From a virus (Duplodnaviria > Heunggongvirae > Uroviricota > Caudoviricetes), in IMG/VR virus record IMGVR_UViG_2737471826_000010, positions 1 through 35,432 of that record: DNA of 35,432 nucleotides; one strand, given 5' to 3'. The first letter of the stretch is position 1. Each line of letters opens with the position of its first letter. Positions 3,107 through 35,432 of the stretch are shown here, piece by piece. Under the pieces are notes generated by a model that worked only from the letters and a program-made list of their open reading frames with translations, made no database searches and was not told where the DNA came from. The translations under genes were made by a program, and so were the position numbers.

Positions 3107-3922
3107 ATGAGCAGACATGCAACAGATTGGGCCTGGGAGACAGATCCAGGTAGCTCGTCATTAAAGCTCATACTGCTCTCGATGGCTGACAGAGCCGATG
3201 AATATAACCTCTGCTACCCCAGCATAGAACGCCTCGTTAAAGACACTTGCCTGAATAAAAAAACCGTGCAGGCCGGACTTATATCGCTCATGAAAATGGG
3301 GCTTATTTCAGATACCGGGGAGAGAAAGGGAGCGACAAAAAGAGTGCGGGTTTTCTCTCTTAATATAACCAAAAACGGGAACATTAAAGGCAACCGAGAG
3401 GGGGGTAATGAACCCGAAAGCGGTAATGTTACCGAAAACTGGAATATACCCAAAAACGGGATGTTGAATGATCCCAAAAACGGGATGTTGAATGATCCCA
3501 AAAACGGGATCCAGAACCAGTCATATAACCAGTCATTTAACCAAGAGAGGGAGAGCAGGACAAAAAACGGGGATTCTGTGCATCATGACCCCGGCGCAAA
3601 CAACGCCGTGATGAATAACTTTGTTCCTCCTGGTGGGCCAGGGCAATTAGGCAAATTTGTCATGCATGAACAATGGCAGCCATCAGATGACTTTCTTCGG
3701 AAAAGCTCATTGCAGGGGATCTACCTGGACAGTCTGCCAACGGCACAGGAACTTGCAGAGTTCAGAATTTACTGGATGGCTGAGGGTAAGGCATACCATC
3801 AGGCACAGTGGGAGCAGAAGCTGGCAAGGCGGCTGCAGATTAGCAGACAGAAGCAATCAACATTACCTGATAACAACGTTCCGCACTGGAACAGCCCTGA
3901 AGCATGGGAGGATTTCTTGTGA
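3107..3922 (+). CDS. replication initiator, O-like (HTH N-terminus, Asn-rich repeat linker, lambda-O-like C-terminus)
   Basis: 271 aa; N-terminal HTH (LKLILLSMADRADEYNLCYPSIERLVKDTCLNKKTVQAGLISL); central NG-rich repeats encoded by DNA iterons; C-terminal WQPSDDF...IYWMAEGKAY; overlaps downstream P-like gene. Confidence 0.6.
   Translation: MSRHATDWAWETDPGSSSLKLILLSMADRADEYNLCYPSIERLVKDTCLNKKTVQAGLISLMKMGLISDTGERKGATKRVRVFSLNITKNGNIKGNREGGNEPESGNVTENWNIPKNGMLNDPKNGMLNDPKNGIQNQSYNQSFNQERESRTKNGDSVHHDPGANNAVMNNFVPPGGPGQLGKFVMHEQWQPSDDFLRKSSLQGIYLDSLPTAQELAEFRIYWMAEGKAYHQAQWEQKLARRLQISRQKQSTLPDNNVPHWNSPEAWEDFL
3369..3512. repeat. iteron array inside the O-like gene (candidate replication origin)
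   Basis: CCAAAAACGGGA at 3369..3380; 24-bp unit CCCAAAAACGGGATGTTGAATGAT at 3449..3472 and 3473..3496, partial third copy 3497..3512; degenerate copies near 3431 and 3560. Confidence 0.5.
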
Positions 3923-4704
3923 ACAACGTTTTTACCGCGATACAAAACCGTGACGGAGAAGCCCTTTCTCGCATGTCAGGTTATGAGCATCAGTACGTCA
4001 ACAATGACAATGTGGTGAACATGTCAGCAGAGAGGCTTGTTGATGCCCTTTTTAAACAGCTGAAACAACTGTTTCCGGCGGCAGTGGTAACCAACCTGAA
4101 GACGCCAGAGCAGGAAGTTGCTGCAAAACAGCAGTGGATTGCTGCGTTTGCCGAAGGGGGGATCCGAACCCGTGAACAGGTTTCTGCTGGTATGCGCCAC
4201 GCCCGCGCCAGTGAGTCTCCGTTCTGGCCGTCGCCAGGGCAATTCATCAAGTGGTGTAAAGACAGCAAGATGGTTCTTGGCGTCACCATTGACGATGTGA
4301 TGGCGGAGTTTCACCGGTACAGCAAGGAAAAAAGTTTATATCCTGGTGGTCCCGAAAGATTCCCGTGGCGACATCCGGTTATGTACTGGGTCGTATGTGA
4401 TACCCGCCGTGCAATGTATCAGCGCCAGCTTAGCGAGATTGAGGTTGAGAAACACGCGCGCAGGCTGCTCGATGATTGGGCGAAAAAGGTGGCTTCCGGA
4501 CAGCAGATACCCGATCCGGTGATCAGCATACAGGCAAAGCCAGAACCCATGAGTACGCCTCCGGACACAGGGAGAGACGTTTACCATCCACCAGGGCGAA
4601 GTTTCGGGTGCATGCCTAACGCCGCCACCCTTGGGGGAATAACACCGGCGCAGTGGCTGATGGAGGAATACAGGCGGGGAAAGGCGTCAGGATTTATCAA
4701 GTAA
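3904..4704 (+). CDS. replication protein P-like helicase loader
   Basis: Strong resemblance to lambda P central region (FPAAVVTNL...EQVSAGMRHARASESPFWPSPGQFIKWCKDSK versus lambda FPASLANR...EQVNAGMRVARRQNRPFLPSPGQFVAWCREEAS, recalled from memory); true start may be in-frame GTG 3919 with GGGAGGA RBS. Confidence 0.75.
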   Translation: MGGFLVNNVFTAIQNRDGEALSRMSGYEHQYVNNDNVVNMSAERLVDALFKQLKQLFPAAVVTNLKTPEQEVAAKQQWIAAFAEGGIRTREQVSAGMRHARASESPFWPSPGQFIKWCKDSKMVLGVTIDDVMAEFHRYSKEKSLYPGGPERFPWRHPVMYWVVCDTRRAMYQRQLSEIEVEKHARRLLDDWAKKVASGQQIPDPVISIQAKPEPMSTPPDTGRDVYHPPGRSFGCMPNAATLGGITPAQWLMEEYRRGKASGFIK

Positions 4705-4741
4705 TACCAGCGCGATAGCGCATTTTTTTACGTCTCGATAA

Positions 4742-4756
4742 TTACCTTAGAGGTAA
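4742..4756. promoter_or_regulatory. operator site TTACC-TTAGA-GGTAA
   Basis: Perfect palindrome copy upstream of a candidate promoter (-35 TTGATT, -10 TTTAAT) for the 4822 gene. Confidence 0.55.
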
Positions 4757-4803
4757 TAAAATATTCTAAAATCTATTGATTTCGTGTCTTATGTGGTTTT
4801 TAA

Positions 4804-4818
4804 TTACCTAAGGGGTAA
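4804..4818. promoter_or_regulatory. operator site TTACC-TAAGG-GGTAA
   Basis: Perfect palindrome copy 4 bp upstream of ATG 4822, overlapping its RBS and predicted +1. Confidence 0.55.
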
Positions 4819-4821
4819 ATC

Positions 4822-5169
4822 ATGAGAAAACAGATGCAGGCTCTTGGTCGACTCAAAACAGGCCAGATGAACAAAACAGAATCTGCGTATTGCCAGCACC
4901 TTGAGCTGCGTAAACGTGCAGGAGAAATCGTCTGGTATCGATTTGAGGGTATCAAGCTGCGGTTAGCTGACAACACGTTCTATACGCCAGATTTTGCTGT
5001 GATGCTCGCCACCGGCGAGATGGAACTGCACGAAGTGAAAGGGGGATTCTGGACCGATGACGCCAGAGTGAAAACCAAAGTCGCCGCAGATCAGTATCCG
5101 TTCCGAATCATCGGGGTAACGGTTAAGCCAAAGAAAGCAGGTGGTGGCTGGAACATCGAAGAGTTCTGA
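4822..5169 (+). CDS. DUF1064-type phage protein (PD-(D/E)XK-like)
   Basis: 115 aa; YTPDFAV...ELHEVKGGFW core resembles DUF1064 proteins of lambdoid prophages. Confidence 0.5.
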   Translation: MRKQMQALGRLKTGQMNKTESAYCQHLELRKRAGEIVWYRFEGIKLRLADNTFYTPDFAVMLATGEMELHEVKGGFWTDDARVKTKVAADQYPFRIIGVTVKPKKAGGGWNIEEF

Positions 5170-5230
5170 ATCGACGATCTTTTTAGTTATCAATGTAATC
5201 AATAAGTTATGTGGATAAGCGAGGGTAAAG

Positions 5231-5494
5231 ATGGAAAGTAATATCAAAGGGTTAGTTGCCGCCGGGCATGAGATGGCTTCGGAACTGAAAGCAGAATGTG
5301 GTGCCGTTGATATGCGCAGTGTGGCAAAGCTGATCAGCGATTTGGCAACGCAACTGGAAGTGCAACTGGTGCGTGCTAATGCGCTGGCAGCGGAGAATGC
5401 GGTAATGCTCGAAACTATTGAAGCCGTTCGCAGTGTTGCGGATAACTCCAGTGGAATTGCCGGATGGCATTTGAATGGCGATATCGCTACGTGA
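5231..5494 (+). CDS. hypothetical protein (87 aa)
   Basis: ORF with GAGGG RBS; predicted helical; no recognisable motif. Confidence 0.45.
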   Translation: MESNIKGLVAAGHEMASELKAECGAVDMRSVAKLISDLATQLEVQLVRANALAAENAVMLETIEAVRSVADNSSGIAGWHLNGDIAT

Positions 5495-26530: not shown

Positions 26531-26944
26531 ATGAAGGAATTATTGCTGTTATCGGTATTTTTGATATCAGCTTGCTCGACATCCTATGATGTTTATGACG
26601 GTGTTGATAAGGCATATTGCGACAAAGTTAAAATGGATTTTTCTCTTGCCAAGACGGCGAAGGATAGTTGTATTGATCACTACGTCAAGACTTATACCAA
26701 GCCAGCCTCATCGGCATCTGATATTGCTGAAGGTGCTGTGTTTGAGTGTAACAAGGTGATATCCATCGCAGCGAGTTCTTCATACGATGCTGCTGTATGT
26801 GCAATGGCTGAAAGAAACGGCATGTCAGTGCAAAAAATTAATAGCATGATAAGCAGTAATGACGAAGCCAAAATAAGAACTGATATCAGCTCGGTGAAAA
26901 AAGATGCCATGAACAGAGTTGTAAAATATCAGTCATCTTTATAA
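26531..26944 (+). CDS. lipoprotein moron (possible superinfection exclusion)
   Basis: Signal peptide with lipobox LISAC; visibly AT-rich; followed by palindrome copy 3 and a terminator. Confidence 0.55.
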   Translation: MKELLLLSVFLISACSTSYDVYDGVDKAYCDKVKMDFSLAKTAKDSCIDHYVKTYTKPASSASDIAEGAVFECNKVISIAASSSYDAAVCAMAERNGMSVQKINSMISSNDEAKIRTDISSVKKDAMNRVVKYQSSL

Positions 26945-27225: not shown

Positions 27226-27738
27226 CTATGCAGGCTTTTTGGATTTGTACGAATAATCCCACGGATAAACATTTCTACTAAGTGGAGCTGTATTCGTTCG
27301 TTCATGAAATAATTTTGTGAAATTCAATACGGAATCCATCCAAACTTTTGCGTTAGCTTTGGTGTGTGCGGGCGGGTCCCAATAAGCTAGTAAGGCTGCA
27401 TCTCTTATTTCATTGACTGCATATATGAGATATGCGTTACTGGTTGGTTTTGGCCTGTAATTTCCTTGTTCATCAATCAATCCGTATGACCACTCATCCC
27501 AACACTGTTCAGTACATGAGTATGAATATGATGCATATTCACCAATATTGACATGAACCTTTCTGAGATGGAAACCTAATACTTCGTCTGGTCTTTCAAA
27601 AAGAGTATCTTTTCCCAGATCAGGATGATGACCATGACGCCAGTGTTGTTTAAAAGCATCTTTTAGCGAAATCAGAAAGTCATCAGTTTTAAACTCACCA
27701 GTAGGTATAACCTTCCCGCTATACTCACTCAAAAACAT
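27226..27738 (-). CDS. YafO-like toxin (putative ribosome-dependent mRNA interferase)
   Basis: 170 aa; PDLGKDTLFE, FHLRKVHVNIG and AYLIYAV...ALLAYWDPPAHTKA align with remembered E. coli YafO blocks (PDTFGRDALYD, ERVAHIHLANE, AHLVYCQ...WLLIAILKPEPHKLA); strong RBS AAGGAAGAGGAA; AT-rich. Confidence 0.45.
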   Translation of the reverse strand: MFLSEYSGKVIPTGEFKTDDFLISLKDAFKQHWRHGHHPDLGKDTLFERPDEVLGFHLRKVHVNIGEYASYSYSCTEQCWDEWSYGLIDEQGNYRPKPTSNAYLIYAVNEIRDAALLAYWDPPAHTKANAKVWMDSVLNFTKLFHERTNTAPLSRNVYPWDYSYKSKKPA

Positions 27739-28051
27739 CGAATTCCTCTTCCTTCATATGCGTTTCTAATGAGTTAAGCTGGCGGAAAGATATCTCTTTT
27801 GATTCTGCAGATGAGAGCTTTTTTATCCGCTTTATATTCTTTGTGATAGGAATAGACATTGTATGCACATCAGCGGATGCTCTTGGCTTTGTGCTGATAA
27901 AAATATGGCGCAATGCCGCATTTTCACTATTGAACGAGCCAATAGCTGATTTACGTGCTACAACCTTACCAGTAAAAATACGACTCTTGCTACGCTTTGC
28001 ATGAGTTCCGCTTCTTACCGGACCTCTCATCACGAATCCAAGTTTTGTCAT
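27725..28051 (-). CDS. putative antitoxin/partner of the YafO-like toxin
   Basis: 108 aa, basic N-terminus, acidic C-terminus EEEFDVFE; GGAGA RBS; overlaps the toxin gene by 14 nt; not obviously YafN/Phd-like. Confidence 0.4.
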   Translation of the reverse strand: MTKLGFVMRGPVRSGTHAKRSKSRIFTGKVVARKSAIGSFNSENAALRHIFISTKPRASADVHTMSIPITKNIKRIKKLSSAESKEISFRQLNSLETHMKEEEFDVFE

Positions 28052-29555: not shown

Positions 29556-29659
29556 TATCTATTCGTATTTACAGTCTTTCTATCCATATGTGGTTTTTCA
29601 GGTAATAGAATAACCAGATATGCGGCGCAACGGGTGCTGCGACTATCTGGAGATTTAAC

Positions 29660-31849
29660 ATGACGGTCTCAACCGAAGTTGACCACAACGAATACACCGG
29701 TAACGGCGTTACGACATCATTTCCGTATACCTTCCGTATTTTCAAAAAAACCGACCTGGTTGTTCAGGTGTCTGACCTGAACGGGAACGTAACAGAATTG
29801 GTTCTGGATACCGGTTATAAGGTAACTGGAGCGGGCACTTATAGTGGCGGTGAAGTGGTTCTCCCGTCGCCGCTTGCTGCTGGCTGGCGAATTACGATAG
29901 AGCGTGTGCTTGATGTGGTGCAGGAGACTGATCTTCGCAATCAGGGAAAATTTTTCCCCGAAGTTCATGAAGATGCATTTGACTACCTGACGATGCTGAT
30001 CCAGCGATGTTTTGGGTGGTTCAGACGTGCATTGATGAAACCATCTTTGCTTGCAAAATATTACGATGCAAAGCAAAACAAAATTTCTAACCTTGCAGAT
30101 CCATCATTTGAGCAGGACGCTGTAAATAATCGCTCAATGCGTAATTATGTCGATGCTGCAATCGCCGGGGTTGTTGGTGGTTTTGGTTGGTTTATACCGT
30201 CAGGAAGCGAGGCAAGACAACGAACATTTCAAAGCAAAATGAGGGATATAATTTCTCCTTGTGATTACGAAGATAATATTTTTATGATTAAGGAGTTGAT
30301 ATCCAAAGGCAAAAATGCCGCTGTTTTTAACTCATATTATACTTTTGTTATTACTGTTGGCGAATGGGGTGATTACCCTACACTCAAAGATGCAATCATT
30401 GCAGCCCAGTCAATGAGACCTATGTGGGATGGTGGTAATGCTTTCTGCGAAATAAGAATTAAGACCGGGCATATTATCAACTATCAAATTGAATTCAGTT
30501 CAGGTGTTGATTTGTCTTGGATTAAAATAACATCAGAAGACTCAGTGGTTTTCTCTGACACTCGTTTGTTTACTAAAATCGTTAGAACGTATTACGAATA
30601 CAAGTATTTATTTTACATTTGCGATGCAGCAAAAAGTCCTGTATTTGCTATTCAGATCGAAGAAAATAGAGATGATAGCGATGTTTGTGCATTTATTGTA
30701 ACTCAAAAAGCTGAACTTAATTTCTATCCGTATTCAGGTGCTCGAAAGTTCTACGTTGGAATTCATGGTAGTTTTGGTGCAAAAATTAGTGCATATCATA
30801 CCGGATGTGCTCCTGATGAGGAAAGTGTTGCTGCATATATGCCAGAAGGGTATTACGTATGTGATTTTTCTTATAGCAGATACTCTTCCCTGCAACTGGT
30901 AAATAATGTCAAGGCATCAATGCCTGTAAGCAAGTTTGAACGGTGCACAGAGAGTACGGTTGCGTCAGTTAATTGTATTTATAATGTTAAAGCAGATTTT
31001 CAGGGGTCAAGTGCAAGCTATTGTTATATAGGATGGAATGTAAGAGATGGTTCAAATGTTAATATACGCGACCATAAAACTATACATTGCTCATATCGTG
31101 GATTAACCTGCATTCATACAGCATATGTTGATGCAAGACGACATGACGTTGAAGAAAGTGATGCAGAAACAAGTGGTAAAGTCCTTGAACCAAATATTGA
31201 AAAAGGTTTTTATGGATGTGCACTTGGTGTGCGTATTGATGGTGCGGGTTGCGTTGATGTTGCTGGTAATGATATGCGCAATTGTGGAACAGCCGTTAAT
31301 GCAGACACTGGTGCTGTTATTTCAGGAAAGGCTGTAGATATCTCAGGGGCTGAGCTGGGATTTGATTGCCATGCAGGAGCATCTGTTAATTTTCCAAGGC
31401 TATGGGGTACAGATATAAAAAAATTAATGCACCTCCAAGATGGTGTAAGGTTTAACTCTAATATTTGTCATGTATTTGGTGCAAATCCCACAAAAGATAT
31501 TAGATGGATTGATGTAGAGAGATCTGAAGCTTCTTTTATGAATGCAACGCTGGATGCAGATTCAGGATTTATTGCCGACTGTGGTAGTAGGATAACCATT
31601 GAAGGAAGTAAAGTTAAAAACCAAACAATAAGAAGTTTTTTTGGATCATATGTGGCTATAAATAATACTGTTGCTGACAGAACTTATTCAGATATAGCCG
31701 ATGTTCCGCAGTTGACTATTAGTGGAGGATCTTTTATTTCTGCTACAGGATATTCTAATTCTGACTCCAGCCCTCTGAGGTTGAGCACAACACGAAATAC
31801 ACTTGGCGTTGGAGGAGCCATATTTTCAACCAATGGGGAAGTTTCATGA
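29660..31849 (+). CDS. tailspike / tail fiber with T7-type N-terminal adaptor and divergent receptor-binding domain
   Basis: N-terminus EYTGNGVTTSFPYTFRIF...GWRITIERV resembles podovirus tail-fiber head-binding domain; C-terminal ~550 aa Cys/Gly/Asn-rich; DNA becomes AT-rich after ~30200. Confidence 0.7.
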   Translation: MTVSTEVDHNEYTGNGVTTSFPYTFRIFKKTDLVVQVSDLNGNVTELVLDTGYKVTGAGTYSGGEVVLPSPLAAGWRITIERVLDVVQETDLRNQGKFFPEVHEDAFDYLTMLIQRCFGWFRRALMKPSLLAKYYDAKQNKISNLADPSFEQDAVNNRSMRNYVDAAIAGVVGGFGWFIPSGSEARQRTFQSKMRDIISPCDYEDNIFMIKELISKGKNAAVFNSYYTFVITVGEWGDYPTLKDAIIAAQSMRPMWDGGNAFCEIRIKTGHIINYQIEFSSGVDLSWIKITSEDSVVFSDTRLFTKIVRTYYEYKYLFYICDAAKSPVFAIQIEENRDDSDVCAFIVTQKAELNFYPYSGARKFYVGIHGSFGAKISAYHTGCAPDEESVAAYMPEGYYVCDFSYSRYSSLQLVNNVKASMPVSKFERCTESTVASVNCIYNVKADFQGSSASYCYIGWNVRDGSNVNIRDHKTIHCSYRGLTCIHTAYVDARRHDVEESDAETSGKVLEPNIEKGFYGCALGVRIDGAGCVDVAGNDMRNCGTAVNADTGAVISGKAVDISGAELGFDCHAGASVNFPRLWGTDIKKLMHLQDGVRFNSNICHVFGANPTKDIRWIDVERSEASFMNATLDADSGFIADCGSRITIEGSKVKNQTIRSFFGSYVAINNTVADRTYSDIADVPQLTISGGSFISATGYSNSDSSPLRLSTTRNTLGVGGAIFSTNGEVS

Positions 31850-32142
31850 TTAAGAGCATTGATGTCACTCCATTTCTTCACTCGCTTTGCGCTTTTGTGG
31901 CTCAGGTACTGGTTGGTATTTTTACCGGAAACTGGGCTTACGGTGCGATAGCCGGTTGTACGTTCTTCATTGCGCGTGAACACACCCAGGCAGAATATCG
32001 CTGGATAGAAAAGTTTGGGAAAGGGAAACGTATCAACATGCCGTGGTGGGGAGGTTTTGATCCACGCGTGTGGGATGTGGGAAGTCTGTTGGATTTTGCT
32101 GTTCCTGTTGTTTTTTGTTTTTGTGTTTATTTCTCTATTTGA
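31846..32142 (+). CDS. small membrane protein (98 aa), function unknown
   Basis: Two or more hydrophobic segments; ATGA overlap with tailspike stop. Confidence 0.45.
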   Translation: MIKSIDVTPFLHSLCAFVAQVLVGIFTGNWAYGAIAGCTFFIAREHTQAEYRWIEKFGKGKRINMPWWGGFDPRVWDVGSLLDFAVPVVFCFCVYFSI

Positions 32143-32344
32143 CTGCTACCGCGCCATTAAATGGTGCGGTATTCAACCTGCTCTTCACTGTTTGTTTCTT
32201 CAGAGTCATGTAAAAGGTGAGCTTTATTCTCGGCATGAAAAACAGGGAATTGACGATGTTAAAGTAACAAAAAACCATAAATGGTTTATTATGCGTAATG
32301 CTTTACTGTTCAGGAGGTTGTTATGCATATAAACGGTGGAAAAC

Positions 32345-33663: not shown

Positions 33664-34142
33664 TCTGGGCATTCGTAAAAGCATACCGGAAACAGTTGAT
33701 TATCATGGCGGTGCTTGCTGTTCTGGTCATATCAGGAGTTGTTGCCTGGAGTGTACACGGCAGTCGTCAGTACGACGCCGGGTATGCGCAGGCGAAAGAA
33801 GACCGCAAAACCGAAGATGAGAGAATTCGTCAGCACTACGAACAGGAGAAAGCGATCAATGAACGTGAAGCGCAGCAGAGGATCGACCAGGCGCGCAATG
33901 ATGCTCTTGATGCTGCCGCTCGCGCTGGCCGGTTGCAGCAACAGCTCGTTGCCATCCGTGAGCAGCTCAGGCAGTATAACGCCATTGTCGGCGCTGGGAC
34001 GTCAGCCGCAGACACCGGAGTTTTGCTTGCCGACGTGCTCAGTAAATCTCTCGAGAGAAACAGACAACTGGCAGAGTATGCTGACCGGGCAGCCGAAGCC
34101 GGAAGAGTCTGTGAAAAACAGTACGACACCCTGACCAGATAG
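33660..34142 (+). CDS. Rz: i-spanin (Rz-like)
   Basis: N-terminal transmembrane segment then coiled-coil periplasmic domain; follows endolysin with ATGA overlap; contains embedded +1-frame lipoprotein ORF. Confidence 0.7.
33859..34134 (+). CDS. Rz1: o-spanin (Rz1-like), embedded in Rz
   Basis: +1-frame ORF entirely within Rz; [26 protein letters not shown] lipoprotein signal (lipobox LAGC), Pro-rich mature region. Confidence 0.6.
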   Translation: MNVKRSRGSTRRAMMLLMLPLALAGCSNSSLPSVSSSGSITPLSALGRQPQTPEFCLPTCSVNLSRETDNWQSMLTGQPKPEESVKNSTTP

Positions 34143-34293
34143 CATGGCATTTTTCATGGTACTGATTTCCGGTGACGGTATATAAAACGGTACGATAAAA
34201 ATTGAGATTTGGAAAAATGTTATCACTCAATTGGTTATGGTTATCGTAAATAATTGAGTGGGAATGATTTTGATCCCTGCACTATGAATGAAC

Positions 34294-34321
34294 AAAACCC
34301 TCTGTTACTACAGAGGGTTTT
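34294..34321. terminator. bidirectional rho-independent terminator at prophage right end
   Basis: Stem CCCTCTG/CAGAGGG, loop TTACTA, flanked by AAAA upstream and TTTTTT downstream, between convergent units. Confidence 0.6.
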
Positions 34322-34361
34322 TTATCTTCAAGAATTATAGGCTTGAAGTTACTTACATCGA

Positions 34362-34901
34362 TTAATTAAACCAGCTGTCCGATTTGTTCTCTTCTGCTTT
34401 GCCCACGCTTTTCATCAGATCTCGACCGCCCTCAGTCATATTCCTGTTTGCGTCAGCTTCAGATTGCACCACATCGGTTTGCGCAGCTTTGTGCTTCAGT
34501 TCCTGATCGATAAATTCGTTTTCTCGCTTAACGCGGGCTTCTTCTTTCGCCAGCGCCAGTTTTTGTTTCTGAATCTCTAAGCTGCGTAGCTCATCTTGAT
34601 AACTTTGATCGCGTTTTTTGTCCGCAGAGGCTTCGGCGTCCAGTTTATCCTGACGAGCTTTCTTATTTGCCGCTGCCGTTGCCGCTCTTTTGTTAGCGGC
34701 GGCCTGGGCGTTTGCGCGACGTTGCTTCTCTTGCTGGATTTCCCTGTTGCGCTCCGCGACCCATTCGTCATGCTGCCTTTGCTCTTCATTTTTACCTTGC
34801 TGTTCCGCTTCTGCGACAGCAGAGAGTTGATCCTGCAATGATGAGGCGATAGCCGGATAGCTTAAGGAAGCTAAGATGGCGCAAAGAAAAACTTTCTTCA
34901 T
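34362..34901 (-). CDS. secreted coiled-coil protein (probable host flank or terminal moron)
   Basis: 179 aa with signal peptide MKKVFLCAILASLSYPAIA and Lys/Glu/Ala/Gln-rich helical body. Confidence 0.55.
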   Translation of the reverse strand: MKKVFLCAILASLSYPAIASSLQDQLSAVAEAEQQGKNEEQRQHDEWVAERNREIQQEKQRRANAQAAANKRAATAAANKKARQDKLDAEASADKKRDQSYQDELRSLEIQKQKLALAKEEARVKRENEFIDQELKHKAAQTDVVQSEADANRNMTEGGRDLMKSVGKAEENKSDSWFN

Positions 34902-34916
34902 GACTCCTCCTGATTA

Positions 34917-35432
34917 TTAGCTCTTTTCAGGACATTTGGTATTTGGCTGAATACGCGTTTCGTTATACGTCGTGGTAATAACAACGGCTAAACCTGTCGT
35001 AAACTGGCACTCTTTACCCACCTGGGTGGAGGTATACACTTTGGTGCCTTCCTTATACGTTAGAGAAACACCTTCCACTAAGGTTTTATCATTCACCATA
35101 GAACCCGCTGCCGCGCCAACAGCTCCGCCGCCAACTGCACCTGCCGTCGTTCCGGAATTGCTGCCAGACCCGACGTTGTGGCCAATAACACCGCCAGCGA
35201 CTGCACCAATAAGCGCGCCGAAGGCTTGTGCGTTTCGTTTATTTTGGGAGTTGTCTACGGCAACTTTTGCGGGAAGAATGGAAATAATATTAACGGTTTT
35301 AGTTTCTTGTTTGGTATTCAGTTGATCGGTTTGATAAACATCGGCGGCATGATCATCAGCATTTGACTGGCATCCTGCCAGAGTGAATGACGCTAACATT
35401 ACCACAGGCAGAAGACATTTTTTAAATTTCAT
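34917..35432 (-). CDS. glycine-zipper lipoprotein (YcfJ-like family), probable host flank
   Basis: Lipobox LAGC in signal peptide; glycine-zipper GALIGAVAGGVIGHNVGSGSNSGTTAGAVGGGAVGAAAG; start codon is the last triplet of the window. Confidence 0.6.
   Translation of the reverse strand: MKFKKCLLPVVMLASFTLAGCQSNADDHAADVYQTDQLNTKQETKTVNIISILPAKVAVDNSQNKRNAQAFGALIGAVAGGVIGHNVGSGSNSGTTAGAVGGGAVGAAAGSMVNDKTLVEGVSLTYKEGTKVYTSTQVGKECQFTTGLAVVITTTYNETRIQPNTKCPEKS

What the first reader, a model, noticed from the sequence alone, without database searches (positions are those of the whole stretch)
29660..31849. Mosaic tailspike: conserved adaptor N-terminus fused to an AT-rich receptor-binding domain
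The first ~180 codons have the composition of the rest of the phage and encode a recognisable head-binding domain. From about 30200 onward the DNA is visibly AT-rich and encodes a Cys/Gly/Asn-rich domain, likely a beta-helix depolymerase. The compositional break suggests a recently swapped host-range module.
Basis: partly seen in the sequence, partly recalled or inferred. Interest (0 to 1): 0.45.

Follow-up and report, generated by a model that had tools for sequence, protein, structure and literature searches.

The report
Mosaic prophage tailspike with swapped receptor module
This gene is the tailspike of a phiV10/epsilon15-like E. coli prophage, built from a conserved virion-anchoring head and a horizontally exchanged, AT-rich beta-helix receptor module; this is a well-known kind of phage mosaic, although the target sugar of this particular module is still unknown.

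Summary
ORF 29660-31849 (729 aa) is real. It contains the lowest-GC stretch of the window: 38.0% against 48.7%, with GC3 falling from 0.44 to 0.24.

Residues 1-179 are the Uetakevirus (phiV10/epsilon15-type) anchor. Residues about 185-729 are a separate module that other phages join to at least four other kinds of N-terminal anchor. Backbone homology stops at 30195 and resumes at 32321, so the exchangeable cassette is 30196-32320. It includes a small membrane-protein gene.

A roughly 1.5 kb tract (30620-32060) is 98-100% identical to P22-like phages JEP4 and HZ41, which indicates a recent transfer between genera.

The lysogens carry at least five O serogroups: O15 (enriched), O5, O11, O25 and O83. 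The usual rule that a prophage tailspike matches its host's O antigen therefore does not hold cleanly.

The same protein is already in public databases, unannotated. This is an ordinary new member of a known kind, with one open question: its receptor.

The parts
29660..31849 (+). Tailspike gene (729 aa), preceded by GGAG at 29649-29652.
   Evidence: ORF and RBS. phrog_5662 'tail fiber protein' matches full length (1-729 of 729). Same position as phiV10 gp25, between a Bro-N anti-repressor gene plus an epsilon15p19-like gene and the holin/endolysin cassette. The exact sequence is WP_047664325.1, 'hypothetical protein'.
29660..30195 (+). Anchor module (aa 1-179): the epsilon15/phiV10-type virion-binding domain. 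By homology it consists of a beta-sandwich followed by a coiled-coil stalk.
   Evidence: 94% DNA identity to Uetakevirus ZX5 up to 30195, and 83% to phiV10 up to 30094. PDB match to Dpo31 (28lx/8ck1) over residues 1-202, E = 2.7e-31. In Dpo31, D1 is a beta-sandwich (residues 8-87), D2 is a coiled coil, and D1 attaches to the virion (PMC13317679). GC 46.3%.
30196..30268 (+). Hinge at the module boundary (aa 180-203, ...RTFQSKMRDIISPCDY). It is conserved at protein level across different receptor modules but diverged in DNA.
   Evidence: Three different receptor modules (this one, the ZX5 module, and the GH28-like module of L007) leave an identical anchor at the same nucleotide, 30195/30196. The ZX5 protein alignment continues to residue 203. 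The family consensus contains RTQHDKN.E..SP.DF.
30197..31846 (+). Receptor-binding module (aa 180-729): a predicted right-handed parallel beta-helix, AT-rich (38.0% GC, GC3 0.24), with 17 Cys.
30196..30500 (+). N-terminal cap and first rungs of the module. This allele was found at high identity only in this prophage lineage and in phage HEMP4.
   Evidence: Only 45-60% DNA identity to JEP4 here. The protein is much less conserved than the rest over aa 185 to about 290. No near-identical DNA match in the phage collection other than HEMP4.
30620..32060 (+). Recent recombination tract shared with the P22-like phages JEP4 and HZ41. The 130-kb phage 92CQ shares it up to 31862.
   Evidence: 98-100% identity per 60-nt window, with graded edges at 30500-30620 and 32060-32120. 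The BLAST spans are 30477-32105 at 97.8% and 30477-31862 at 97.5%.
31846..32142 (+). Small membrane-protein gene (98 aa) whose start overlaps the tailspike stop (ATGA). It belongs to the cassette and may serve as its conserved 3' flank.
   Evidence: phrog_1443, unknown function; no Pfam or NCBIfam hit. It follows the receptor-binding gene in Uetake-, Lederberg- and lambdoid phages. Copies at about 86% DNA identity occur in 1829 of 5426 E. coli genomes.
30196..32320 (+). The whole exchangeable cassette, lying between the two ends of backbone homology.
   Evidence: ZX5 homology ends at 30195 and resumes at 32321. Eleven E. coli chromosomes carry this cassette at 99.9-100% identity.

Best explanation
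The gene encodes the tailspike of an integrated phiV10/epsilon15-like (Uetakevirus) prophage of E. coli.

Residues 1 to about 180 form the genus-conserved anchor that fixes the presumably trimeric spike to the tail. From about residue 185 to the end, the protein is a self-contained right-handed beta-helix module that recognises, and probably cleaves, a surface polysaccharide of the host, so that the particle can reach the outer membrane.

The module belongs to a roughly 2.1-kb cassette (30196-32320) that has been swapped into the conserved backbone by recombination. The left junction is a fixed hinge at the anchor/module boundary. The right junction lies in or after a small conserved membrane-protein gene. 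A second, more recent recombination event placed a tract of about 1.5 kb, nearly identical to one in P22-like phages, inside the module.

Shown here: the architecture, the junctions, the sharing between genera and the predicted fold. Inferred: trimer formation, catalytic activity and the identity of the receptor.
For: Phage identity and synteny:
-. HEMP4 matches at 98-99.5%; phiV10, phiv142-3 and ZX5 at 95-97% over the structural genes.

Anchor:
-.
- Papers PMC13317679 and 10.64898/2026.07.31.742079, which describes six trimeric spikes with a flexible N-terminal phage-binding domain.

Module boundary:
- Similarity to 22 of 23 homologue clusters starts at aa 178-192.
- Four Pfam anchor types precede the same module.
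- Three different modules join the same anchor at the same nucleotide.

Cassette limits: 30195 and 32321.

Recent exchange: 98-100% identity to JEP4 over 30620-32060, against about 40% in the flanks.

Composition.

Possible active site: stacked invariant polar residues, R462/D463 with H486 and R470/H472 with R493. They are spaced by one rung (about 23 aa) in the alignment and the secondary-structure map. This reading is an inference only.
Against: - No catalytic activity, substrate or trimer has been shown.
- No Pfam, NCBIfam or PDB sequence match covers the module.
- Lysogens that carry the same module have at least five O serogroups. This fits poorly with a simple spike specific for one O antigen.
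Confidence: 0.85

Rival explanations
1. The module is an O15-specific O-antigen depolymerase. On this view the classical rule holds, and the carriers with other serogroups arose because the host's O locus was replaced after lysogeny.
For: Six of 15 carrier genomes have the O15 wzx/wzy genes, against 100 of 5426 genomes overall. One of the six (24A16CRGN010) carries the module on a different phage genus, which makes it an independent association. In GN02461 (O25) the wzy gene is frameshifted. PMC10408124 documents the rule for Uetake- and Lederbergvirus prophages.
Against: PD23 is O83, MS 198-1 is O11, GN02461 is O25 and FORC_082 is O5. Five further carriers were not among the roughly 98 O15 genomes that could be listed. 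PD23 and MS 198-1 differ in six of eight neighbouring housekeeping proteins, so they are separate lineages rather than one clone that switched its O locus. The five Uetake-type O15 carriers may belong to one clone, and two of them are an obvious pair.
Confidence: 0.3
2. The module targets a glycan other than the host's O antigen. Candidates are a capsule, or a lineage-linked or widely shared envelope glycan such as an LPS core type or enterobacterial common antigen. That would allow infection across serogroups.
Against: No shared capsule or core type was tested here. The JEP4 host-range data come from a preparation whose electron micrographs showed a myovirus, which does not fit a 39-kb P22-like genome. 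O15 is clearly enriched among carriers. Prophage presence does not prove that entry occurred through the present surface.
Confidence: 0.3
3. The beta-helix only binds the receptor and has no enzymatic activity. It would act as an adhesin-like fibre rather than a depolymerase.
Against: Most characterised beta-helix spikes of P22-like and epsilon15-like phages are enzymes (established knowledge; epsilon15 gp20). The invariant charged residues cluster with rung periodicity.
Confidence: 0.2
4. The GC shift is not a sign of mosaicism. It reflects only the amino-acid or codon needs of a beta-helix domain within a vertically inherited gene.
For: Other receptor modules on the same type of anchor are also lower in GC than their anchors: phiV10 41.8%, ZX5 44.6% and L007 36.4%. 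The shift begins about 165 nt before the homology break.
Against: The drop is greatest at synonymous third positions (GC3 0.44 to 0.24). The homology breakpoints are sharp and shared between phages. The same module sits behind four or more unrelated anchors and is 98-100% identical in another phage genus.
Confidence: 0.02

Closest known systems
phiV10 gp25 and epsilon15 gp20 tailspikes (Uetakevirus)
   Same: The N-terminal anchor is homologous (83% DNA identity to phiV10 up to 30094; 92% protein identity to ZX5 over residues 1-203). The gene has the same position before the holin/endolysin cassette. The overall plan is the same: anchor, hinge, then beta-helix.
   Different: The receptor module is unrelated in sequence. 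There is no O-acetyltransferase or other serotype-conversion gene downstream as in phiV10 and epsilon15; a 98-aa membrane-protein gene sits there instead. There is no petal/esterase domain as in gp20.
Tailspike of the P22-like phages JEP4 and HZ41 (Lederbergvirus), and cluster P0002 'phage head-binding domain-containing protein'
   Same: Same receptor module: 89% identity overall, and nearly identical from about residue 291 to the C-terminus. It is followed by the same small gene.
   Different: These proteins have a P22-type head-binding N-terminus (PF09008) instead of the epsilon15-type anchor. The first roughly 105 residues of the module are much less conserved than the rest.
Receptor-binding protein gp15 of Staphylococcus phage Andhra (PDB 8egr)
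   Different: Only 16% identity, with no similarity detectable by sequence search. The host is Gram-positive and the proposed ligand is wall teichoic acid. The N-terminal attachment differs. The function of gp15 is also only predicted.
Modular, horizontally exchanged receptor-binding proteins of E. coli phages (PMC10408124)
   Same: A conserved anchor combined with an exchangeable receptor-binding domain, shared among Uetake-, Lederberg- and large lytic phages. The anchor was delineated there as the first 205 aa of the phiV10 protein.
   Different: This module is not among the subtypes listed there: JEP4 and HZ41 are absent from the paper's tables. Its carriers do not show the one-subtype-one-serogroup pattern that the paper relies on.
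Tailspike Dpo31 of Cobetia marina podovirus Carin-1 (PDB 28lx / 8ck1)
   Same: The N-terminal 200 residues align at E = 2.7e-31. These are the D1 beta-sandwich and the start of the D2 coiled coil, and D1 contacts the virion.
   Different: The beta-helix (D3) and the C-terminal parts are unrelated.

Membership tests
Uetakevirus (epsilon15/phiV10-type) tailspike | N-terminal anchor homologous to the first ~205 aa of phiV10 gp25 / epsilon15 gp20 | tested here: met
   94% DNA identity to ZX5 and 83% to phiV10. 92% protein identity over residues 1-203. PHROG tail families match residues 1 to about 165-205.
Uetakevirus (epsilon15/phiV10-type) tailspike | Gene lies between the anti-repressor / epsilon15p19-like genes and the holin-endolysin-spanin cassette of a ~39-kb podovirus genome | tested here: met
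   The ORF map is collinear with phiV10, ZX5 and the EC332 prophage. The window matches HEMP4 and phiV10 over 77-89% of 23 kb.
Uetakevirus (epsilon15/phiV10-type) tailspike | Homotrimer, six copies per virion, present in the particle | not testable with these tools
   Known for epsilon15. Only a monomer could be modelled here.
P22-type tailspike (Phage head-binding domain, PF09008) | N-terminal PF09008 head-binding domain | tested here: not met
   No PF09008 hit at E <= 1. Sibling proteins P0002, P0006 and P0007 and the JEP4 tailspike do carry it.
T7 tail-fibre N-terminal domain (PF03906) | Pfam match above the gathering score | tested here: not met
   E = 0.33 and 11.1 bits against a cut-off of 25.2, covering residues 135-161 only.
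Right-handed parallel beta-helix (pectin-lyase-like) tailspike/depolymerase fold | Beta-helix fold of the C-terminal module | tested here: met
Right-handed parallel beta-helix (pectin-lyase-like) tailspike/depolymerase fold | Sequence-level match to a curated beta-helix family (for example Pectate_lyase_3 or Beta_helix) | tested here: not met
   No Pfam or NCBIfam family matches the module. The profile search against PDB sequences hits only the foreign anchors.
Polysaccharide depolymerase (hydrolase or lyase) | Identifiable catalytic residues and demonstrated cleavage of a glycan | not testable with these tools
   Only a candidate cluster (R462, D463, R470, H472, H486, R493) was inferred, from invariance and rung spacing.
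Serogroup-specific receptor-binding subtype (sensu PMC10408124) | Carriers of one subtype share one O serogroup | tested here: not met
   O15 in six carriers, plus O83, O11, O25 and O5, and five further carriers that are not O15, among 15 carrier genomes. O15 is enriched (1.8% base rate) but not exclusive.

The most novel reading that the evidence does not exclude
The module may define an uncharacterised, rare enzyme family of beta-helix spikes: 16 representatives at E <= 1e-30 among 1.84 billion proteins, with the Andhra receptor-binding protein as the nearest structure. Its receptor may not be the host's O antigen but a glycan shared across serogroups O5, O11, O15, O25 and O83. If so, temperate podoviruses of two genera and a 130-kb phage would share a host-range determinant that works across serogroups.
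Probability: 0.25. Interest if true: 0.55.

Novelty: new member of a known kind. Interest (0 to 1): 0.3.

Why it matters
The locus is a clean, precisely mapped example of how phage host range is rewired:
- A fixed junction at the anchor hinge, used by at least three different receptor modules.
- A conserved small gene at the 3' side of the cassette.
- A second, very recent recombination tract inside the module, shared between phage genera.

Such maps guide the engineering of phage or tailocin specificity.

The module belongs to a rare family with no described function. Its carriers break the 'prophage spike predicts host serogroup' rule that is used for in-silico receptor prediction. Identifying its ligand would either add a new specificity (possibly O15) or reveal a receptor that works across serogroups.

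Nothing here challenges current understanding of tailspike modularity.

Tried and rejected
- Sequence-based annotation of the module: Pfam, NCBIfam and PDB sequence searches all found nothing. The profile-versus-PDB search returned only the N-terminal anchors of other family members, because the alignment contained them.
- The BFVD structural search found no characterised close relative.
- Promoter and terminator scans around the gene were at or below the numbers expected from shuffles, so no regulatory claim is made.
- I tried to link JEP4's propagation host 'E. coli E15' with RefSeq strain E15, which is O15. That record is from Hebei, China, and nothing ties it to the JEP4 study, so the link was dropped.
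- I tried to read the O loci of EC332 and ECCNB12-2 by coordinate extrapolation. Both chromosomes are rearranged relative to K-12, the windows I fetched missed the locus, and I did not pursue it. Those two genomes are only known to be absent from the O15 lists.
- The paper on E. coli tailspike modularity does not list JEP4 or HZ41 or this subtype. The O-antigen review text did not contain the repeat-unit structures needed to test for a shared epitope.
- Capsule (kps) and LPS core (waa) typing of the carriers was considered but not done, because locating each locus costs several calls per genome.
- The idea that low GC alone shows a recent swap was rejected after comparing modules across different backgrounds.

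Full report
**1. What is at the coordinates**

An ORF runs from ATG 29660 to TGA 31849 on the + strand and encodes 729 aa. GGAG lies 7 nt upstream of the start.

The window is an integrated phiV10/epsilon15-like (Uetakevirus) prophage of E. coli:
- 23 kb of it matches phage HEMP4 at 98% identity, and phiv142-3, phiV10 and ZX5 at 95-97%.
- Gene order around the ORF matches phiV10: a Bro-N anti-repressor gene, an epsilon15p19-like gene on the opposite strand, the tailspike, two holin-like genes, a GH19 endolysin and a spanin.
- The right end of the window carries the host genes yfgI and yfgH, as at the prophage junctions in strains EC332 and WP5-S18-ESBL-08.

**2. The compositional observation**

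| Region | GC |
|---|---|
| Whole window | 48.7% |
| First 536 nt of the ORF | 46.3% |
| 30196-31849 | 38.0% |

The difference is concentrated at third codon positions: GC3 is 0.44 in the first part and 0.24 in the rest. The 1654-nt stretch is in the lowest 0.6% of all windows of that size, and all of the lowest windows overlap it. A likelihood change-point test within the ORF was matched by 1 of 1000 codon shuffles.

- The change point is near 30030 (codon 124-126), about 165 nt upstream of the homology break. The last 165 nt of the anchor are already 39% GC here and in ZX5, but 48% in phiV10, whose homology ends earlier, at 30094. This hints at nested, older junctions.
- Of 'Cys/Gly/Asn-rich', only Cys holds: 3.1% against 0.9%.

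**3. The mosaic is directly visible**

Megablast of the gene splits it into three parts:
- Nt 1-536 match Uetakeviruses at 94-96%.
- Nt 826-2190 match the Lederbergviruses JEP4 and HZ41 and the 130-kb phage 92CQ at 98%.
- Only HEMP4 matches the full length (99.5%).

Local BLAST refines the limits:
- ZX5 backbone homology ends at 30195 and resumes at 32321.
- JEP4 and HZ41 share 30477-32105.
- 92CQ shares 30477-31862.

An alignment of this window with ZX5 and with another Uetakevirus prophage (L007, which has a GH28-like spike) shows identical sequence up to 30195 and then three unrelated receptor modules. The three modules share only a hinge motif at protein level.

At protein level, 22 of 23 homologue clusters begin to match at residue 178-192 and continue to the C-terminus. 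Those proteins carry different N-termini: P22-type head-binding (PF09008), TSP1/gp66-type (PF18668), tail-collar (PF12571) and T7-fibre-type (PF03906). Two also carry a C-terminal SGNH esterase. Residues about 185-729 are therefore a portable unit.

**4. A second, younger layer of mosaicism**

The identity profile against JEP4:

| Window coordinates | Identity to JEP4 |
|---|---|
| up to 30200 | about 40% (unrelated) |
| 30200-30500 | 45-60% (diverged alleles of the same module) |
| 30500-30620 | 85-90% |
| 30620-32060 | 98-100% |
| beyond 32100 | falls again |

The JEP4 and 92CQ proteins are 89% identical to this module overall. Their substitutions cluster before about residue 291, and the remainder is nearly identical. 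This is the signature of recent homologous exchange inside the module. The edges lie in a family-conserved motif (DLSWIKI.SED) and in the small downstream gene. This tract, not the low GC, is the evidence that the exchange was recent. The module is 37-38% GC in every background examined (JEP4, 92CQ and this window), and other receptor modules on this type of anchor are also lower in GC than the anchor.

**5. What the parts are**

The anchor (aa 1 to about 180) aligns with the solved tailspike Dpo31 of the podovirus Carin-1 at E = 2.7e-31. In Dpo31, D1 is a beta-sandwich that contacts the virion and D2 is a coiled coil (PMC13317679). Epsilon15 gp20 likewise has a flexible N-terminal phage-binding arm, and six trimeric spikes sit on each particle (preprint 10.64898/2026.07.31.742079).

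The module has no Pfam, NCBIfam or PDB sequence match. AlphaFold2, run with a 24-sequence alignment, gives pLDDT 93.8 and pTM 0.89. The model has a short alpha/beta cap followed by strands all the way to the C-terminus.

Structural matches:
- Foldseek agrees.
- BFVD adds no characterised relative.

The family is rare. An exhaustive HMMER scan of 1.84 billion representatives found 16 proteins at E <= 1e-30 and 36 at E <= 1e-10.

Invariant polar residues R462/D463 and H486, and R470/H472 and R493, are spaced by one rung (about 23 residues) and may stack into a site. This is my inference. I could not inspect model coordinates.

**6. How it most likely works**

The anchor trimer docks on the tail. 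The hinge gives flexibility. The beta-helix binds a polymeric surface glycan and probably cleaves it, which lets the particle move down to the membrane.

- Shown: modular architecture, junctions, predicted fold, synteny.
- Inferred from family knowledge: trimer, presence in the virion, catalysis.
- Unknown: the substrate.

**7. The receptor question**

Eleven of 5426 complete E. coli genomes carry the cassette at 99.9-100% identity. Five records (four distinct genomes) carry the Lederbergvirus version. I read the PGAP names of wzx and wzy between galF and gnd:

| Carrier | O serogroup |
|---|---|
| MSB1_7C, 118UI, ECO_1_S, ECO_2_R, EECO1006 | O15 |
| 24A16CRGN010 (Lederberg-type) | O15 |
| PD23 | O83 |
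| MS 198-1 | O11 |
| GN02461 | O25, wzy frameshifted |
| FORC_082 (Lederberg-type) | O5 |
| Five other carriers | absent from the ~98 of 100 O15 genomes I could list |

O15 is therefore strongly enriched (6 of 15 carriers against 1.8% overall), but it is not the rule.

PD23 and MS 198-1 differ in most neighbouring housekeeping proteins, so this is not one clone that switched its O locus. MS 198-1 and FORC_082 share many identical housekeeping proteins. Yet they differ in O type and in the genus of the carrier phage.

JEP4 was reported to lyse 74% of phylogroup A isolates, but that study's electron microscopy does not fit the genome (PMC8425383).

I leave the receptor open. The candidates are O15 antigen with secondary spread, or a glycan that is not the O antigen.

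**8. Comparison with what is known, and novelty**

Anchor-plus-exchangeable-module tailspikes shared among Uetake-, Lederberg- and large lytic phages are well documented (PMC10408124).

The exact protein is already public:
- as WP_047664325.1, 'hypothetical protein';
- as a sibling allele seen on 262 contigs;
- as the full-length family phrog_5662;
- in phage HEMP4.

The finding is a correct reading of a known kind of feature. The module's family has no known function, and its carriers are heterogeneous in serogroup. Those two points are the only less ordinary aspects.

**Verdict:** observation confirmed, interpretation supported, new member of a known kind, interest 0.3.

Noticed in passing
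window 31846-32142 (+): A 98-aa hydrophobic protein gene whose ATG overlaps the tailspike stop (ATGA). It matches phrog_1443, with no Pfam or NCBIfam family. Homologues follow the receptor-binding gene in Uetake-, Lederberg- and lambdoid phages (phage 21, mEp460) and occur in Aeromonas phages. Copies at about 86% DNA identity occur in 1829 of 5426 E. coli genomes, with a median of two per genome. Its function is unknown; it may be a superinfection or envelope-related moron, and it may act as a 3' recombination anchor.
   Followed up: partly
window 27226-28051 (-): A second low-GC island (37-40% GC) with two overlapping ORFs. The 170-aa product gives a weak YafO-toxin hit (E = 9.5e-4, 19.7 bits, below the Pfam cut-off of 25). 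A related prophage (L007) has an annotated YafO-family toxin at the same place. This is probably a toxin-antitoxin moron.
   Followed up: partly
window 34143-35432: The window ends in host DNA: yfgI at 34362-34901 (-) and yfgH at 34917-35432 (-). The prophage's right attachment junction therefore lies between the spanin gene (which ends at 34142) and 34361, as in E. coli EC332 and WP5-S18-ESBL-08.
   Followed up: partly
window 26531-26944 (+): A 137-aa ORF with a lipoprotein-like signal (LLSVFLISAC), directly after the 824-aa virion protein gene. No convincing family match was found.
   Followed up: no
window 30031-30195, and L006 (phiV10) 3368-3532: The last 165 nt of the conserved anchor are already AT-rich (39% GC) in this prophage and in ZX5, but 48% GC in phiV10, whose homology to the window stops at 30094. 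This suggests an older junction nested inside the anchor's coiled-coil part.
   Followed up: partly
L003 (phage 92CQ, PV682554.1) 3521-5365: A 130-kb phage with baseplate genes carries the same beta-helix module behind an N-terminal part of only about 66 residues. Its local GC (36.9%) equals that of the module. Low-GC lytic phages are therefore a plausible reservoir or donor of the module.
   Followed up: no
PMC8425383 (JEP4 paper): JEP4 is described there as a myovirus by electron microscopy, but its 39-kb genome is a P22-like Lederbergvirus with a tailspike. The published host range may come from a mixed lysate.
   Followed up: no
L009 (E. coli EC332) and L017 (ECCNB12-2): Both carrier chromosomes have large rearrangements relative to the K-12 map: tor-put-phoH or muk-ompF-ompA regions lie where the O-antigen region was expected. 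This prevented a simple coordinate-based lookup of their O loci.
   Followed up: no
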